This document shows, piece by piece, positions 3,918 through 42,030 of a DNA stretch of 64,000 nt; the stretch's first letter is position 1; every line of letters begins with the position of its first letter. Under the pieces are notes generated by a model that saw only the letters and a list, made by a program, of their open reading frames with translations, was not told the origin of the DNA and did not search any database. Made by a program: the position numbers and the translations under genes. Origin of the DNA: Octopus vulgaris (Eukaryota); contig OX597815.1 of assembly GCA_951406725.2 (NCBI GenBank), forward strand, positions 41,416,001-41,480,000. Direction: 5' to 3'.

Positions 3918-6113
3918 GTGGTACTGTCATTGGCCATGTCAGCGATTTTGATTTCACTTGCCTCAATAGGTCTTTGCAAGCAAAGTTTATTGTCCAATGA
4001 GTGAAGGGTATTCATAAGTGGGCTGGTTACACCCACTGGCATAGGCCATGGGCTATGGTTTCACTTGGCTTGCCTGGTCTTCTAAAGCACAGCATATCTC
4101 CAAAGGTCTTGGTCACTAGTCATTGCCTCGGTAAGGCCCAGTGTTCGAAGGTTGTGCTTCACCACCTCATCCCAAGTTTTCCTGGGTCTACCTCTTCCAC
4201 AGGTTCTCTCAACTGCTAGAGTGTGATGCTTTTTCACACAGCTGTCCTCATTCATTCGCAATACATGACCATACCAGCACAGTCGTCTCTCTTGCACACC
4301 ACATCTGATGCTTCTTAAATCTAACTTTTCTCTCGGGGTGCTTATACTCTGTCTTGTGTGCACACTGACATTACACATCCAGCGGAGCATACTGGCTTCA
4401 TTCCTTGCAAGCTTACACATGTCCTCAGCAGTCACGGCCCATGTTTCACTGCCATATAACATGGCTGTTTGGGCACATGTGTCATACAGTTCACCTTTTA
4501 CTCTAAGCGAGAGGCCCTTTGTTACCAGCAGAGGTAGGAGCTCTCTGCACTTTACCTAGGCTATTCTTATTCTAGTAGCTACACTTTCAGAGCATCCACC
4601 CCCGCGACTGACTTGGTCACCTAGGTAATGGAAGCTATCAACTACTTCTAGTTTTTCTCCCTGGAATATGACAGAAGCTGTTCTCTGTACATTTTCAGTG
4701 CTTATAGCACCTGAGCATTTGCCACAACAAAACCTATCTTCCCAGTTAGCCTTCCTTTGATATTGCTCTTATGTATCCATAGCTTACACTGGGTACATCT
4801 TATAGAGTTTCTACCTACGCCTTTTCTACAGATCGAGCAGGGCCATCTACCTGAAGGGATTTGTGGGTTGTCTGCCTTCCTTCTTATTAAGACTTTGGTT
4901 TTAGCTAGGTCGACTCTAAGGCCCTTTGATTGTAATCCTTGGTTCCACACCTGAGACTTTTCCTCTAGTTCTGATAGTGACTCAGCAATTAGAGCAAGAT
5001 CATCAGCATAGAGGAGCTCCCAGGGGCATCCTATCTTGAATTTCTCTGTTATAGCCTGGAAGACTATGTTGAATAAGAGGGAGTTGAGGACTGATCCTTG
5101 GTGGACCCCTACCCCTACTCGGAATTCTTCACTGTACACGTTGCCAACCCCTCACCTTACTGACAGCATCCCTGTACATGGCTTGTACAGCTTTCACTAA
5201 CCATTCATCTATCCCTAGTTTCCTCATTGACCACCAGATAAGGGATCGGGGGACCCTGTCAAAAGCTTTCTCCATGTCATTGAAAGCCAGGTACATAGGT
5301 TTATCTTTGGCTAAGTATTTTTCTTGCAACTGCCTTACTGGAAATACAGCATCAGTGGTGCTTTTCCCTGGCACGAACCCAAACTGCATCTCATCTAGAC
5401 TGACTCTCTCCCTAAGTAGTTGGGCTATGATCCTCTCCGTGACCTTCATTACCTGATCCAGCAACTTGATATCAATGTAATTATTTATACCTAAAGCGTC
5501 ACCTTTACTTTTGTAGCAGTTGACTATGGTGCTGCTACACCAGTCATTGGGTATGACTACTTCATGTACCCTTTGTTGGGTTGGCATTTGGCAGACTCTT
5601 TCTCCCATTCATTCTCTTTATTTAGCAACCTTTCATAGTGGCGTCTCCAAACCTCTCTCTTTGCAGCCTTGTTTAATGCAAGTAAACTATCATCCATGCG
5701 GACACATTTCTCTCCTACGACATCATGATTCTCTCTCACACACTGTCTTACAACATGAAATAACTCAAGTCTTTGGTCCTCAAGGCACAGAACATTGGCA
5801 ATTTTTTTCTTATCTGCTTCCCCTTTGGCTAAAGAAACCTGTCTCCTAGCTTCCCTTCCGGCAGTCTGATACAGTTCCCTGCTACCACTGTTATTCCAGT
5901 CCTTCCAAGCATGTTTCTTTTCCCTAATAGCCCTGTCAACAATATTGTTCCACCACCACGTTACCTTGGGTCAAGAGGGGTCTTCGCGCTATCCACAGAT
6001 CTGATCAGTGGCCCTCAGCAAGTTGTCCCATAGAAACCACCAGTTGTCTTCCACATCATGTGATGCTATATCCCCCTCTATTTCGTCAAAGGCTTCAAGT
6101 AATACGTCTCTAA
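3918..6113 (-). mobile_element. RTE-clade non-LTR retrotransposon, 5'-truncated RT pseudogene
   Basis: ORFs 5129-5608, 4702-5139 and 4082-4462 carry QFGFVPGKSTTDAVF, DMEKAFDRVPR, GVHQGSVL, LLYADDLAL, LYGSETW, WYGHVLRM and GRGRPRKTW; frameshifts and an internal deletion near 5570. Confidence 0.95.
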
Positions 6114-6385
6114 AGAAGAAAAAAAATCAACTGAAGTGGTACATTCTGCACCAAAATGACTTTTCTTCCTTTACAAACATTGAGTTTTCATCTTTTCTAA
6201 TTCCTGGTACAAAAACTTTCTTCACGAGATTTTCTATCAGCACTGATTTCCTCGACAAAGACCCTTCAACATAGAAGGATGATCCCAGTTACAAAAATGA
6301 ACTTGAAAAAAACTTGAGAAGACAGTTGTTGTAAATGATGTTGCAGAATGAGGTGTCAAACTCATTCAGAATTACAATAGCATTA
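6114..6385 (+). mobile_element. hAT-superfamily (hATm-like) transposase C-terminal remnant
   Basis: Translation TDFLDKDPST*KDDPSYKNE / VVVNDVAE*GVKLIQNYNSI matches recalled FLxxDPxxW...VVNDxAERGVKL; stops are consistent with TGG>TAG and CGA>TGA. Confidence 0.7.
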
Positions 6386-6395
6386 TACAATATAT

Positions 6396-6440
<45 letters not shown>

Positions 6441-6441
<1 letters not shown>

Positions 6442-6845
6442 CATCATCGTTTAACGTCTGTTTTCCATGCGGGCATGGGTTGGACGGTTTAACTGAGGTC
6501 TGGAGAGCCAGCAGCTGCACCAGGCTCCAATCTGATCTGGCAATATTTCTACAGCTGGTTGCCCTTCCTAACACCAACCACTCTGAGAGTGTAGTGGGTG
6601 CTCTTTACATGCCACCAATGCAGGAGCCAGTGAGGAGGGCCTGGCATCGATCACATTCGGATAGTGCTTGTTACATGCCACCAGCACGGAAGCCAGTCAG
6701 TGGGTACTGGTATCAACCATGTTCAGTTGATGCATTTTGCATGCCACCAGAACAGGAGCCAGTCACAGGGCACTGGCCACAGCTACGATTTTTGGTTTTA
6801 CTTGACTCAACAGGTCTTCTCAAGCATATCATATCGCCCGACACA
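6441..6845 (-). mobile_element. RTE LINE 3' end with tandem ~55-60 bp units
   Basis: catcatcgtttaacgtctgttttccatgcgggcatgggttggacgg tail; the far end (ggtcttctcaagca) matches the RTE ORF end at 4076-4090. Confidence 0.85.
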
Positions 6846-7142
6846 TCAAGGGGACTCTTAAATGGGCCAGACATGCTAATGTGTACAATTATTTGATACA
6901 AAGAATTAATCACCGGAAACAATGCCAAATTAAAAATCTGTAGGTGTACATTTTTTTCGTCTGTTCACATACAAGTGATTATCAAAATTTTGCAGGAGTG
7001 TTTTGGACTACTTTCTATGAAAACCAATGCTAATCTACATTTTCTAAGTAGTGATTTTTGCTGAAAAATTTATTGGTTTGTATTGGACTATTTTTCTGTT
7101 TTGATGAAGTTTCTTAAATGCTATGTTTGGGTTGCAGTTTAA

Positions 7143-8235: not shown

Positions 8236-8630
8236 TCATCATCATCATCATCGTTTAGCGTCCGCTTTCCATGCTAGCATGGGTTGGACGGTTCAACTGG
8301 GGTCTGGGAAGCTAGAAGGCTGCACCAAGCCCAGTGTGATCTGGCAGTGTTTCTACGGCTGGATGCCCTTCCTAACGCCAACCACTCCGTGAGTGTAGTG
8401 GGTGCTTTTTACGTACCACCGGCACAGGTGCCAGACGAGGCTGGCAAATGGCCACGATCGGATGGTGCTTTTTACGTGCCACCGGCACAGAGGCCAGGTG
8501 AGGCTGGCAACGGCCACGATCGGATGGTGCTTTTTACGTGCCACCGGCATGGAGGCCAGTCGGGGCGGCGCTGGCAACGGCCAACATTCGGATGGTTCTC
8601 TTACGTGCCACTGGCACTGGTATCACAGCT
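8236..8630 (-). mobile_element. RTE LINE 3' end with ~62-bp tandem units
   Basis: (atc)n tail plus repeated gtgctttttacgtgccaccggcac units. Confidence 0.9.
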
Positions 8631-14837: not shown

Positions 14838-15200
14838 ATCATCATCATCATCATCATTGTTTAACGTCCGTTCTCCATGCTAGCATGGGTTGGACGGTTC
14901 GACCGGGGATCTGGGAAGCCAGAAGGCTGCACCAGGCTCCGGTCTTATCTGGCAATGTTTCTACAGCTGGATGCCCTTCCCAACGCCAACCATTCCGTGA
15001 GTGTAGTGGGTGCTTTTTACGTGCCACCTGCACTGGTGCCAGGCGAGGCTGGCATCGGCCACGGTCGGATTGGTGCATTTTACGTGCCACCTGCACGGAA
15101 GCCAGTCGAGGCAACACTGGCTTCGGTCACGATTTGGATGGTGCTTTTTACGTGCCACCGACACGGAAGCCAGTCGAGGCAGCGCTGGCATTGGCAATAA
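14838..15200 (-). mobile_element. RTE LINE 3' end with tandem units
   Basis: (atc)n tail and three ttttacgtgccacc units. Confidence 0.9.
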
Positions 15201-19126: not shown

Positions 19127-20550
<1,424 letters not shown>

Positions 20551-20588
20551 AGCCTCAACCACTAGGATGTCTAGAGAACTCACATGTA

Positions 20589-20679
20589 TTTTAGCTGATG
20601 AGTACGGGACACGTTTATATGCTGTAATTTTTGCAACTTTTAATAAAACCTGTCCTTGTATGAAACGATTGTACTAAAA
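20589..20679 (+). ncRNA. Type I hammerhead ribozyme (Penelope/retrozyme type)
   Basis: Stem I TTTTAG (20589-94) / CTAAAA (20674-79); core CTGATGA (20595-601); stem II GTACGGGACA.GTTT / AAAC.TGTCCTTGTAT; GAAA (20662-65); minimal stem III CGATTG; GUA triplet ending at 20673. Confidence 0.8.
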
Positions 20680-20710
20680 ACCTATCCATTCTTGTTGCTT
20701 CATTCTCGCT

Positions 20711-20983
20711 TATATACACATATATATATACACATATATATATACACATATATATATATACACATATATATATACACATATATATATACACATATATATA
20801 TACACATATATATATATACACATATATATATACACATATATATATACACATATATATATATACACATATATATATACACATATATATATATACACATATA
20901 TATATACACATATATATATATACACATATATATATACACATATATATATACACATATATATATACAGATATACATATACATAT
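20711..20983. repeat. (TATATACACA)-type microsatellite
   Basis: Direct inspection. Confidence 0.95.
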
Positions 20984-20986
20984 AAA

Positions 20987-21320
20987 GACCCCCTTCGGTC
21001 ATGAATGACCATGGGATTGCACCTAGAAAGTTACCCTCCTAGACACAAGTCCGGGCAAGGTTGTTTATGGAAGACCAGCAGTCGCCCATGCATACCAGCC
21101 TCCCCTCTCCACGCCACCAGTGTTATCCAAGGGAAAGACAAAGGTCGATACAGCTTGGCACCAGTGACGTCGCAACTCATTTCTACAGCTGAGTGAACTG
21201 GAGCAACGTGAAATAAAGTGCCTTGCTCAAGAACACAACACGCAGCCCGGTCCGGGATTCAAGCTCACAACCTCACGATCGTAAGCTCAACGCTCTAACC
21301 ACTGAGCCATGTGCCTTCAC
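20987..21320 (-). mobile_element. CORE-like SINE (family C), full length
   Basis: Minus strand reads gtgaaggcacatggctcagtggttagagcg...catgaccgaagggggtc. Confidence 0.9.
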
Positions 21321-21368
21321 TTATACATATATATATACATATATACATATACATATACATATATACAT

Positions 21369-21412
<44 letters not shown>

Positions 21413-21967
21413 ATATAAATAATAATATATGCATATATACATACATATATGTACATACCTACATATATATGTATATATACATGCATATATGGGTACAGGA
21501 TGTCAAAAAAACGTTGAACACAATGAGAAAGGAAAGCATAAAAACAAAAACATACAAACAAACTTTTTTCGGAAAACAAAAAAACAAACAAACAGAAACG
21601 AGACGTACAACATAAAGAATATTCCCCTTCTTCAGTTGTCCCCATTTCAATTACTCCACGTTTCGAAGGCAAGTACACACACTCACACACACATATATAT
21701 ATAAAATGTGTGATATACAAAGCTTCTATTCTTTTGCCTACATTTTTCAATAATAGATATAAACCATTTCCCCTGTTAATATATATTTTTGAGTATGCTA
21801 TTTTGAATTCTTGTGGCCATTTTCTCCTGTGAATTCATTGCTTTGGAATCCTTGAACTGTTATTATCCATTGTGACAAAAGTATACGACCGAAGTTACTT
21901 ATCATTTGATGGATAACACTTTAAGATATATATACACAGACACACACACATAAACACATATATATAG

Positions 21968-22011: not shown

Positions 22012-23455
22012 TAGTTAACCAGGTGATACACGAAGGAGTCATACCCAATGACTAGTGTAGCAGCATAATAGTCAATTGCTACAAAGGTAAAGGTGATGCC
22101 CTAGATACAAATAACTACAGGGGTATCAAGCTGCTGGATCAGGTAATGAAGGTTACGGAGAGGGTTATAGCCCAACTAATTAGAGAGAGAGTTAGCCTAG
22201 ATGAGATGCAGTTTGGGTTCATGCCAGGGAAAAGTACTACTGATGCTATATTCCTGGTAAGACAGCTGCAGGAGAAATACCTAGCCAGAGATAAGCCCCT
22301 GTACCTGGCTTTTGTTGATATGGAGAAAGCCTTTGACAGGGTCCCTCAATCCCTTATCTGGTGGTCAATGAGGAAACTAGGGATAGATGAATGGTTAGTG
22401 AGAGCTGTGCGTGCCATGTACAGAGATGCTGCTAGTAAGGTTAGGGTTGGCAACGAGTACAGTGAAAAATTCCGGGTAGAGGTTGGGGTCCACCAAGGTT
22501 CAGTCCTCAGTCCCCTCCTATTTATCATAGTCCTCCAGGCAATAACAGAGAAATTCAAGACAGGATGCCCCTGGGAGCTCCTCTATGCTGATGACCTTGC
22601 TCTAATTGCTGAGTCACTATCAGAACTGGAGGAGAAGTTTCAGGCGTGGAAGCAAGGATTAGAATCGAAGGGCCTTAGAATCAACCTAGCCAAACCAAAG
22701 TCCTAATAAGTAGGAATGTAGACCAATCACAAACACCTTCAGGTAGATGGCCCTGCTCGATCTGTAAAAAAGGTGTAGGTAGAAACTCTATAAGGTGCAC
22801 CAAGTGTAAGCTATGGACATATAAGAGGTGCAGCAATGTCAAAGGAAGGCTAACTAGGAAAATAGTTTTTGTCTGTGGCAGATGCTCAGGAGCAATAAAC
22901 ACTGAAAATGTGCAGAGACTAACTTCTACCACGTTCCAGGGAGAAAAACTAGAAGTAGTTGGTAGCTTCCGCTACCTAGGTGACCAAGTCAGTAGCTGGG
23001 GTGCGTGTGCTGAAAGTGTAACTGCTAGAGTAAGAATAGCCTGGGCAAAGTTCAGAGAGCTCTTACCCCTGCTGGTGACAAAAGGCCTCTCGCTCAGAGT
23101 AAAAGGCAGACTGTATGATGCATGTGTACGAACAGCCATGCTACGTGGTAGTAAAACATGGGCTGTGATTGCTGAGAATATGCATAAGCTCGCAAGAAAT
23201 GAAGCCAGTATGCTCCGATGGATGTGTGATGTCAGTGTTCATAATCGACAGAGTGTAAGTACCTTGAGAGAAAAGTTGGACCTAAGAAGCATCAGTTGTG
23301 GTGTGCAAGAGAGACGTTTGCGCTGGTATGGTCATGTGACGAGAATGGCTGATGATAGTTGTGTGCAAAAGCAGCCTTCTGGCTTCACAGACCCCAGTTG
23401 AACCGTCCAACCCATGCTAGCATGGAAAGCGGACGCTAAATGATGATGATGATGA
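22009..23455 (+). mobile_element. RTE-clade LINE, 5'-truncated, RT pseudogene joined to its (GAT)n tail
   Basis: ORF 22146-22706 (QFGFMPGKSTTDAIF, DMEKAFDRV, GVHQGSVLSPLLF, YADD), frameshift, ORF 22910-23401 ([13 protein letters not shown]); flanked on both sides by (TA)n. Confidence 0.96.
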
Positions 23456-32256: not shown

Positions 32257-32569
32257 CTAGCAGTATCGCCCGGCATTGCTTGGGTTTTAGAATTGGAATT
32301 TTTGAAAAGTAAAAATTTTGCATTATGTAGCTTGTTATTCTCTTTAAGTGAACATTTTTCTGGTGGAAATACACCTAAAAAGGGCAACACAGCAGTCAAA
32401 AAATCGTAAAAAATAGGGATTTTCATAGAAAAAAACGCACCTTTTTGATGTAAATAATTGTTGGTGTTAACATGGTCTGATTTGAATTTTTTCTTCTAAG
32501 GAAGGAAGAGCAAGCCTTCTTCTATCATACTCTCATACACAGACAACTTCAGCTTTATATAGAGAGAGA
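32257..32569 (-). mobile_element. Non-autonomous Helitron with intact termini
   Basis: Minus strand A|TCTCTCTCTATATAAAGC...CCCAAGCAATGCCGGG-cgatactg-CTAG|T: 5' TC, subterminal hairpin, 3' CTAG, AT insertion site, no TSD. Confidence 0.88.
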
Positions 32570-32703
32570 TAAAGATTATGTTATTATAATTATTGCGTGT
32601 GTGTGTGAAGCCTTCTTCTATCATACTCTCATACACAGACAACTTCAGCTTTATATAGAGAGAGATAAAGATTATGTTATTATAATTATTGCGTGTGTGT
32701 GTG
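32512..32703. repeat. Exact 96-bp tandem duplication
   Basis: 32512-32607 equals 32608-32703 (aagccttcttctatc...gcgtgtgtgtgtg). Confidence 0.95.
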
Positions 32704-41544: not shown

Positions 41545-42030
41545 GGGGCACCGGTGCCCGCCGACCGATAACCCTTCGAAAACACTGTTCAATTTAAAAT
41601 TCAAGAATTTAATATGCAGTAATTAGATACAAGTATAAAAATTTCAAAAACAAAAATTCATTTTTCATTAATCCTTCTCATCTGGATCCCCAAGTATGTT
41701 TCCTGGTGCCTGCAGGAAAGCCTGCATTGGCAGGCCCGGACGGAGGGATACAAAATCCTCGTTATTGCAGGTCCTCTTGACCTCAATTAATTCTTCCTGG
41801 GTAACGAACTCCGCAGCCACCTGCGGAGGCCAACACGGACTGTCTATACAGACCGAATCATATCGTTCTCGGTCTAGAAGACTGTCCAAGTACATCTCAA
41901 CTAATGTTGTCCTGGAGAAAACAAGGCTAGTAAAGCTTGGCAACAGTGTCATCACAAATGTTGGAGGCAGACTAGAGCCAGGACATATGTCAAGATATCC
42001 TACCGACTACTCTAACAATCCTACCAATCC
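41545..42030 (-). mobile_element. Probable internally deleted Mutator-like transposase fragment inside a family M SINE
   Basis: ORF 41668-41955 YDSVCIDSPCWPP|QVAAEFVTQEEL...FLQAPGNIL resembles recalled MULE YxxxTWIxSxxWPP; SINE halves at 41425-41500 and 42030-42165. Confidence 0.45.

What the first reader, a model, noticed from the sequence alone, without database searches (positions are those of the whole stretch)
20551..20710. Hammerhead ribozyme hidden in a 160-bp island between kilobase (TA)n arrays
Seen: TTTTAG-CTGATGA-[GTACGGGACACGTTTAT...GCTGTAA-TTT-TTGCAAC...ATAAAACCTGTCCTTGTAT]-GAAA-CGATTG-TA-CTAAAA. The catalytic core is intact, stem I is a perfect 6 bp, stem II is an unusually long ~60-nt hairpin closed by G-U, stem III is the minimal near-palindromic type, and predicted cleavage is after GUA at 20673. 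Known: type I hammerheads with a short palindromic stem III occur in Penelope-like elements and retrozymes and often cleave as dimers. Inference: remnant of a non-autonomous ribozyme retroelement that could cut a plus-strand host transcript or belong to a circRNA-producing family. Activity and novelty are untested.
Basis: partly seen in the sequence, partly recalled or inferred. Interest (0 to 1): 0.82.

Follow-up and report, generated by a model that had tools for sequence, protein, structure and literature searches.

The report
Hammerhead at a jumping-gene tail
The self-cutting-RNA (hammerhead) motif is real and is one truncated copy of a high-copy repeat that ends in TA microsatellites, likely the ordinary tail of a Penelope-type jumping gene that is predicted to cut only as a pair, and whose transcripts appear to be A-to-I edited across the cutting site.

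Summary
The motif is there as described (type I hammerhead, 20589-20679; Rfam Hammerhead_1 18.4 bits, below the 34-bit cut-off; 0 of 300 shuffled windows give such a motif). It is not a lone oddity: public DNA runs of two organisms lay 110 and 290 contigs on the 160 bases. Other copies run on 5' of 20553 and several end at about 20708 in TA-rich sequence, 37 bases after the cut site. That is the published pattern of Penelope-like elements (5' truncation, 30-40 bp tail, TA targets, hammerhead with palindromic helix III that works as a dimer). The G-U closure is common in such motifs (6 of 44 published rows); only the 60-base helix II is unusual, and it shows no covariation. No Penelope RT was linked, so membership is inferred. 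A solo copy is predicted to misfold and not to cut. One twist: four low-depth contigs of a probable RNA run carry 38 A>G against 1 T>C, including A13, A15.1 and the cut-site A, the signature of A-to-I hyper-editing (no matched DNA). Ordinary in kind, new family, modest interest.

The parts
19128..20550 (.). Left (TA)n/(CA) microsatellite array, 1423 bp; target of the insertion
   Evidence: 709 A, 578 T, 132 C, 4 G
20551..20710 (+). 5'-truncated solo copy of a high-copy repeat: its 3'-terminal ~160 bp
   Evidence: 110 (X16) and 290 (X17) contigs laid at >=80%; loose ends before 20553 show other copies going on upstream; loose ends behind 20708 run into TA-rich sequence
20548..20552 (+). 5' junction: 4-base TATA microhomology between the array and the upstream sequence of longer copies
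   Evidence: against the loose ends before 20553 in X16 and X6 (one contig each); read by eye
20578..20603 (+). Predicted competing hairpin that sequesters the CUGAUGA box (anti-ribozyme fold)
   Evidence: minimum-energy and centroid folds; prediction only
20589..20594 (+). Stem I, 5' arm
20595..20601 (+). Catalytic box C3-A9 (CUGAUGA), no extra base before helix II
20602..20661 (+). Helix II, 60 nt, 23 predicted pairs, closed by G10.1-U11.1; holds 7 of the 11 places that vary in the family
20662..20665 (+). Catalytic box G12-A15.1 (GAAA)
20665..20672 (+). Near-palindromic 8-mer of helix III: 2 bp as monomer, 8 bp between two copies; both family variants here make it a perfect palindrome
20673..20673 (+). 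N17 (A of GUA), predicted cut 3' of it; read as G in 4 contigs of run X6
20674..20710 (+). Stem I 3' arm (20674-20679) and 37-nt stretch from cut site to the element's 3' end
20711..20984 (.). Right (TA)n/(CA) array, 274 bp, same strand composition as the left one (likely one array split by the insertion)
   Evidence: 137 A, 99 T, 37 C, 1 G

Best explanation
The island is a 5'-truncated solo copy of the 3' end of a high-copy repeat that carries a type I hammerhead motif, and it is likely the pseudo-LTR tail of a Penelope-like retroelement (or of a non-autonomous derivative) that was likely reverse-transcribed into a TA microsatellite. In the parent element the hammerhead would cut the precursor RNA after GUA when two copies pair through the palindromic helix III (double hammerhead); reverse transcription would start 37 bases downstream of that site and here stopped after about 160 bases, joining the array at a TATA microhomology. 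This copy has no partner nearby and is predicted to fold into a competing structure, so it is likely inactive alone. Transcripts of the family that end up in long double-stranded RNA appear to be hyper-edited by ADAR, as transcribed repeats generally are, which would further blunt cutting. Shown: motif, repeat family, truncation, TA-joined 3' end. Inferred: Penelope link, dimer mechanism, inactivity, editing.
For: Family: 110 contigs in DNA run X16 (organism A; 48 at >=99%, 25, 25 and 12 in the lower bands) and 290 in X17 (organism B; 94/88/71/37), single contigs at depth 1914, 2225 and 1398 beside others at 8-31. Ends: loose letters before 20553 (X16 and X6, one contig each, same letters) and before 20594 (X16, 3 contigs, TA-rich); TA-rich loose letters behind 20708 (X16 3 contigs, X17 2); 37 nt from cut site to end. 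Published PLE traits: frequent 5' truncation, 30-40 bp tail, TA-microsatellite bias, hammerheads within pLTRs (PMC8557442, passages); palindromic helix III, dimer action, mostly single motifs from truncated PLEs, no activity of a single motif (PMC4209133, parts 1-2 of 4). None of the 11 places varying at >=1% of depth in DNA falls in the 29 core and stem I positions (P 0.04-0.10); both helix III variants perfect the palindrome (self-duplex -5.8 to -6.4 or -10.0 kcal/mol). Double-hammerhead dimer -31.6 kcal/mol, within 0.9 of the dimer optimum and below twice the monomer optimum (-25.0); monomer hammerhead 2.0 above its optimum. Editing: records 21-24 of X6 carry 38 A>G and 1 T>C; 14 of 17 A against 1 of 13 T in 20640-20681, Fisher P 1e-4.
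Against: No Penelope RT or GIY-YIG frame was tied to the family; the only RT pieces in the window are RVT_1 LINE-type fragments (137 of 212 candidate frames scanned). The family is not among the PLE consensus sequences of PMC8557442 as far as 11 short search words (line breaks can hide matches) and a by-eye look at the Naiad_Obim and Naiad_Ovul 3' ends can tell. Rfam score is below cut-off. Helix II shows no compensatory change: of 7 variable places 3 break a pair, 2 weaken one, 1 restores one, 1 is in the loop. Both helix III variants are CpG-type transitions that would keep a palindrome without selection. The motif lacks the extra base after A9 and the G-C closure of the published consensus. 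The end evidence rests on 1-3 contigs per place, and 13 further loose ends were not shown. Editing: X6 is only guessed to be RNA, the four contigs have depth 2.9-4.6, no DNA of the same individual and no silent control stretch was laid, and assemblies drop rare DNA variants.
Confidence: 0.75

Rival explanations
1. The family is a tandem non-LTR retrozyme: short head-to-tail units cut into monomers and circularised, and this is a partial monomer.
For: Type I hammerhead with 6-bp stem I and no extra base after A9, as in canonical retrozyme motifs; low GC; solo monomers are common in such families (bioRxiv 10.64898/2026.07.22.740005; PMC7229834). Two X16 contigs begin at 20674 and 20676, at the predicted cut site.
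Against: No joint in any of 4 runs; 3' loose ends run into TA-rich sequence, not into a next unit; one copy only in 64 kb. The unit length upstream of 20553 is unknown, so longer tandem units are not excluded.
Confidence: 0.1
2. The hammerhead belongs to the 3' end of another kind of retroelement (SINE or LINE family that targets TA repeats), not to a Penelope-like element.
For: 5' truncation with a fixed 3' end in TA repeats also fits target-primed reverse transcription by LINEs (general knowledge); the window is rich in LINE and SINE-like pieces; no PLE frame was found.
Against: Type I hammerheads with palindromic helix III close to a 3' end are described for PLEs and their derivatives; the 37-nt distance fits the PLE tail; the island shares no sequence with the LINE or SINE-like blocks of the window.
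Confidence: 0.07
3. The family's ribozyme is gated by editing: the long helix II or an inverted partner recruits ADAR, and inosine at A13, A15.1 or N17 switches cutting off, so that host editing controls maturation of the element's RNA or of host RNAs carrying a copy.
For: N17 reads G in all 4 edited contigs, A15.1 in 3, A13 in 1, stem I 3' arm in all 4. Inosine at the cut-site base slowed an engineered hammerhead about 30-fold (PMC3923133, passage). No paper on edited natural retroelement hammerheads turned up in 3 searches (listings only).
Against: Editing is spread over 14 of 17 A, the blanket pattern of hyper-edited repeats in all animals (PMC5625713, passages), not a site-specific switch; it needs long dsRNA that would itself prevent the hammerhead fold; the two deepest of the 8 listed X6 contigs that cross the core (records 18 and 20, depth 46.8 and 18.2) show no such cluster; no inverted partner in the window (best E 0.18); no matched DNA.
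Confidence: 0.05
4. This copy is an active cis-acting ribozyme that cuts a plus-strand host transcript and has been co-opted.
For: Core, stem I and GUA site are intact; contigs identical to this copy stand in X6 (record 18, 0 differences over 151 bases) and X13 (record 1, 0 over 160, the only family contig in that run), both guessed RNA and possibly this DNA's source.
Against: Those contigs bridge the cut site; stem I probability <=0.01 with the island's 5' part, A15.1-U16.1 <=0.03 in all 15 co-transcriptional windows; single motifs of this kind were inactive in vitro; no host gene or strand established; no conservation at the locus tested.
Confidence: 0.03

Closest known systems
Hammerheads in the pseudo-LTRs of metazoan Penelope-like elements, variant with a small palindromic helix III (Cervera and De la Pena 2014, PMC4209133; nearest rows by eye: Saccoglossus kowalevskii(2) and Marsupenaeus japonicus PLE)
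   Same: Type I topology, intact boxes, palindromic helix III, U-rich before and AU-rich after, cut after an A and no extra base after A9 in those two rows; G10.1-U11.1 in 6 of 44 rows seen (both Lottia rows, Ixodes(2), cichlids, Latimeria(1), Xenopus(1)); mostly single motifs from truncated elements.
   Different: Helix II with loop is 60 nt here against at most 23 nt in the 44 rows seen (counted by eye; about 12 further rows in part 1 not read); stem I is 6 bp; no PLE frame shown.
TA-targeting EN+ PLE clades Neptune, Hydra, Naiad (Craig et al. 2021, PMC8557442)
   Same: 5' truncation, 30-40 bp tail, insertion into (TA)n.
   Different: Naiads lack canonical hammerheads, and the 3' ends of Naiad_Obim and Naiad_Ovul are not this sequence (by eye); clade cannot be assigned without the RT.
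Non-LTR retrozymes of animals (Cervera and de la Pena 2020, PMC7229834; Li, Clavereau and Pollet 2026 preprint)
   Same: Type I hammerhead, low GC, non-coding, solo monomers frequent, thought to derive from PLE pLTRs.
   Different: Defined by head-to-tail units of 150-450 bp and circular RNA; neither is seen here.
Rfam RF00163 Hammerhead_1
   Same: Full-length alignment to model positions 1-45, all core columns matched.
   Different: 18.4 bits against a gathering score of 34, with 54 unaligned bases in loop II against 8 in the model.

Membership tests
Type I hammerhead ribozyme | Conserved core CUGANGA / GAAA / NUH around three helices, stem I open | tested here: met
Type I hammerhead ribozyme | Rfam RF00163 gathering score (34 bits) | tested here: not met
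   18.4 bits, E 0.044; none at gathering in the window
Type I hammerhead ribozyme | Helices supported by compensatory change | tested here: inconclusive
   core and stem I invariant at 1% depth (P 0.04-0.10), helix III variants keep the palindrome, helix II has no compensatory pair; unphased variant tables only
Type I hammerhead ribozyme | Site-specific self-cleavage | not testable with these tools
   only contigs were available; they cannot show RNA ends
Penelope-like element pLTR hammerhead | Palindromic 15.2-16.2 / loop III suited to a dimer | tested here: met
   8-bp self-duplex; dimer -31.6 kcal/mol
Penelope-like element pLTR hammerhead | Extra base between A9 and 10.1, and G10.1-C11.1 (consensus >80%) | tested here: not met
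   no extra base, G-U closure, no C variant listed at 20661 in either DNA run; both departures occur among published rows
Penelope-like element | Dispersed, 5'-truncated copies with a fixed 3' end and a 30-40 bp tail, microsatellite target | tested here: met
   loose ends (1-3 contigs per place), 37 nt
Penelope-like element | Linked telomerase-like RT with or without GIY-YIG endonuclease | tested here: inconclusive
   no genome held; none in the window; pattern scans of viral, metagenome and prokaryote collections empty
Penelope-like element | Partial tandem (pLTR) or inverted arrangement of copies | tested here: inconclusive
   solo here; no joints in the 160 bases laid; longer context not available
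Non-LTR retrozyme | Head-to-tail units of 150-450 bp, each with a hammerhead | tested here: not met
   not at this locus; no joint in 4 runs; arrays of longer units elsewhere not excluded
Non-LTR retrozyme | Abundant linear and circular monomer RNA | not testable with these tools
   no raw RNA reads laid
A-to-I hyper-edited repeat RNA | Dense one-directional A>G clusters in RNA absent from matched DNA | tested here: inconclusive
   38 A>G against 1 T>C in 4 low-depth contigs; 11 of the 14 A>G places have no depth in either DNA run; DNA not matched, RNA status guessed

The most novel reading that the evidence does not exclude
An uncatalogued, high-copy Penelope-type family carries a hammerhead with an exceptionally long helix II whose catalytic adenosines and cut-site base are edited by ADAR, so that host A-to-I editing acts as an off-switch on a natural retroelement ribozyme (and on any host RNA that carries a copy).
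Probability: 0.08. Interest if true: 0.62.

Novelty: new member of a known kind. Interest (0 to 1): 0.27.

Why it matters
As it stands it adds one more family to the thousands of Penelope-type hammerheads known in animal genomes, with a helix II longer than in the published rows I saw (which short-loop descriptors and the Rfam cut-off miss), apparently in a cephalopod-like genome, for which my searches found no hammerhead family in print. What these ribozymes do in the Penelope cycle is still open, and a young family with a fixed 3' end 37 bases from the cut site is good material for that test. If editing of the core proved selective, it would be a natural case of ADAR controlling a self-cleaving RNA, which I found only as an engineered design (PMC3923133).

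Tried and rejected
No whole genome is held for the window, so copies could not be extended or counted. Pattern scans for relatives found nothing in viral, metagenome or prokaryote contigs, as expected for an animal repeat. No RNA holder listed: one search has no run on record as RNA (21 of 24 rows hold the stretch or part of it, 9 studies, X1 a possible source of this DNA); this says nothing on expression. Earlier scan notes: nothing by sequence or place, nothing relevant for octopus or editing words. Host gene: Pfam on 137 of 212 candidate frames gave only LINE-type RT pieces; the exon-like frame at 41671-42006 (minus) stayed unidentified, and its three profile hits are repetitive proteins that do not map back. 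Chance motif: rejected. Decay of this copy as the cause of the G-U closure: rejected, no C variant is listed at 20661 in either DNA run and G-U closures are published. A second descriptor hit on the minus strand (21635-21538) rests on G-U pairs and vanishes under Watson-Crick rules; Rfam has nothing there. Summed depth was not used as a copy number. A paper search for the G10.1-U11.1 pair returned 0 papers. One supplementary file of PMC4209133 could not be searched, the supplement of PMC13282606 was listed but not read, and bioRxiv supplements are closed; a repeat library holding this family (Repbase, Dfam, the O. vulgaris library) may exist unseen.

Full report
Observation. The 160-bp island lies at 20551-20710 between a 1423-bp and a 274-bp (TA)n/(CA) array of the same strand composition. 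On the plus strand it holds stem I (20589-20594 with 20674-20679), CUGAUGA (20595-20601), a 60-nt helix II closed by G-U (20602-20661), GAAA (20662-20665), a near-palindromic 8-mer (20665-20672) and GUA ending at 20673. Rfam gives no match at gathering level in the window; on the island the best of 4 matches is Hammerhead_1 over the whole model, 18.4 bits against 34, E 0.044. A descriptor finds this one motif in the window and none in 300 shuffled windows (thresholds chosen after seeing it). The island is no more stable than shuffles (z 0.60 and -0.62).

It is a repeat. There is no second copy in the window and no genome is held, but 21 of 24 listed runs from 9 studies and two organisms hold its words (X1 may be the source of this DNA). 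Laying 4 runs at 80% likeness gave 110 contigs in X16 (DNA, organism A), 290 in X17 (DNA, organism B), 22 in X6 and 1 in X13 (both only guessed RNA). Single DNA contigs reach depth 1914, 2225 and 1398 beside others at 8-31, which points to at least hundreds of copies; 48 of 110 and 94 of 290 contigs are at least 99% alike, so the family is not very old and this copy is close to it. Loose ends show other copies going on 5' of 20553 (one contig each in X16 and X6, same letters, with a TATA microhomology to the array), others beginning at 20594 (3 contigs) or at 20674 and 20676 (1 each), and TA-rich letters behind 20708 (3 contigs in X16, 2 in X17); 13 further loose ends and 398 pieces were not shown. 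No joint was found. The island is thus the 3' end of a longer element, cut short at its 5' side, and the end lies 37 nt after the predicted cut.

Variation. Eleven places vary at 1% of depth or more in DNA. None lies in the 17 core or 12 stem I positions (P 0.10 over 160 bases, 0.04 over the central 116); one X17 contig has A>G at 20676 at 0.05% of depth. No C is listed at 11.1, so the G-U closure is a family trait. The two variable places in helix III each turn the 8-mer into a perfect palindrome (self-duplex -5.8 becoming -6.4 or -10.0 kcal/mol), but both are CpG-type transitions. Against a selected long helix II: of its 7 variable places 3 break a pair, 2 weaken one, 1 restores one and 1 is in the loop.

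Mechanism. As a monomer the hammerhead fold lies 2.0 kcal/mol above the optimum and helix III barely forms (P 0.02); two copies arranged as a double hammerhead reach -31.6 kcal/mol, 0.9 from the dimer optimum and below twice the monomer optimum of -25.0. With the island's own 5' bases a competing hairpin (20578-20603) takes the CUGAUGA box and stem I falls to P 0.01 or less in 9 of 10 windows starting at 20551 or 20570 (0.06 in the tenth), and 0.02-0.32 in 5 starting at 20580. This matches Cervera and De la Pena 2014 (PMC4209133; parts 1-2 of 4 of the text, one part of the supplement): Penelope-type hammerheads sit in the pseudo-LTRs, have palindromic helix III, occur mostly as single motifs from truncated elements, and a single motif did not cleave while dimers did weakly. 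Craig et al. 2021 (PMC8557442; passages and supplement) add 5' truncation, a 30-40 bp tail and TA-microsatellite targets. My reading: reverse transcription of a Penelope-type RNA, primed in a TA array 37 nt past the ribozyme, stopped after 160 nt. The link to a Penelope RT is inferred, not shown: the window's RT pieces are LINE-type, collection scans were empty, and the family is not recognisable among the published consensus sequences.

How unusual. In the 44 rows of the 2014 alignment that I saw (about 12 not read), G-U at 10.1-11.1 occurs in 6, and two rows share the lack of an extra base after A9, the palindromic helix III and a cut after A; helix II with loop is at most 23 nt there against 60 here (counted by eye). 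'Long helix II' in a 2026 paper means 6 bp (PMC13725137, passages). Tandem retrozymes (PMC7229834, parts 2-3 of 6 and passages; bioRxiv 10.64898/2026.07.22.740005, part 1 of 5 and passages) are the main rival, but tandem units and circles are not seen. Searches for hammerheads with octopus or cephalopod returned no paper on such a family (listings), and the O. vulgaris repeat paper has Penelope families but no word on ribozymes (PMC13282606, passages). That the genome is cephalopod is my impression from the TA load and a recalled SINE; no call tested it.

Editing. X6 shows 14 A>G places, 11 of them with no depth in either DNA run. Solving the depth sums assigns them to four contigs (records 21-24) with 8, 11, 10 and 9 A>G in different but overlapping sets and 1 T>C in all; 14 of 17 A against 1 of 13 T in 20640-20681 (Fisher P 1e-4; 8 of 22 records were listed, 2 rows could not be assigned). 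The sites include A13 (1 contig), A15.1 (3), the cut-site A (4) and the 3' arm of stem I (4). This is the signature of A-to-I hyper-editing of plus-sense family RNA. Limits: RNA status is a guess, depths are 2.9-4.6, the DNA is not from the same animal, no silent stretch was laid, the contigs may come from other copies, and assemblies drop rare DNA variants. Hyper-editing of repeats is general in animals and high in octopus (PMC5625713, passages); inosine at the cut-site base slowed an engineered hammerhead about 30-fold (PMC3923133, passage). No paper on edited natural retroelement hammerheads appeared in three listings. The blanket pattern argues for routine repeat editing, not a switch. Contigs identical to this copy (X6 record 18, X13 record 1; they may be this DNA's source) bridge the cut site unedited.

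Verdict. Observation confirmed; interpretation partly supported. A real hammerhead motif at the tail of a likely Penelope-type family, new as a family and with a long helix II, ordinary in kind, probably inactive as a solo copy. Interest 0.27; the editing-switch reading has probability about 0.08 and would deserve about 0.62.

Noticed in passing
window 21491-21680, minus strand: A second small island between TA arrays holds both hammerhead boxes in permuted order (CGAAAC at 21665, CTGAAGA at 21635-21629), the same layout as the 3' end of Naiad_Obim/Naiad_Ovul ('HHR_half_core') in PMC8557442; likely the tail of another Penelope-like family, facing the finding 0.9 kb away. No Rfam match, no sequence match to the supplement.
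   Followed up: partly
window 20985-21321: SINE-like block inserted between TA arrays right after the finding; recalled as resembling octopus SINEs, not tested.
   Followed up: no
window 4085-5970 (minus) and 22056-23398 (plus): Two broken copies of a LINE-type reverse transcriptase (Pfam RVT_1) with a PHD-like stretch.
   Followed up: partly
window 41671-42006, minus strand: GC-richer open frame that looks like a terminal coding exon (acceptor-like site, stop at 41671); no relative found in four searches.
   Followed up: partly
window 20578-20603: Predicted hairpin that sequesters the CUGAUGA box; by eye the family variant at 20583 (9% and 24% of depth) would add a pair to it. Could be a conformational brake on the ribozyme or chance.
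   Followed up: partly
window 20674-20676: Two DNA contigs of X16 begin at or two bases after the predicted cut site with unrelated sequence before it, as expected of copies made from cleaved RNA; one contig each, may be chance.
   Followed up: no
window 20551-20710 in runs X13 and X6: X13 holds this exact copy and no other member of the family; in X6 it is the deepest of the listed contigs; 13 small runs guessed to be RNA from 4 studies hold all its words. This locus may be transcribed more than its sisters; strand and host unknown.
   Followed up: partly
window 8401-8617, 15009-15195 (also 2259-2621, 6381-6896): Recurrent GC-rich 62-68-bp tandem units of one dispersed repeat family.
   Followed up: no
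window 32512-32703: Perfect 96-bp tandem duplication.
   Followed up: no
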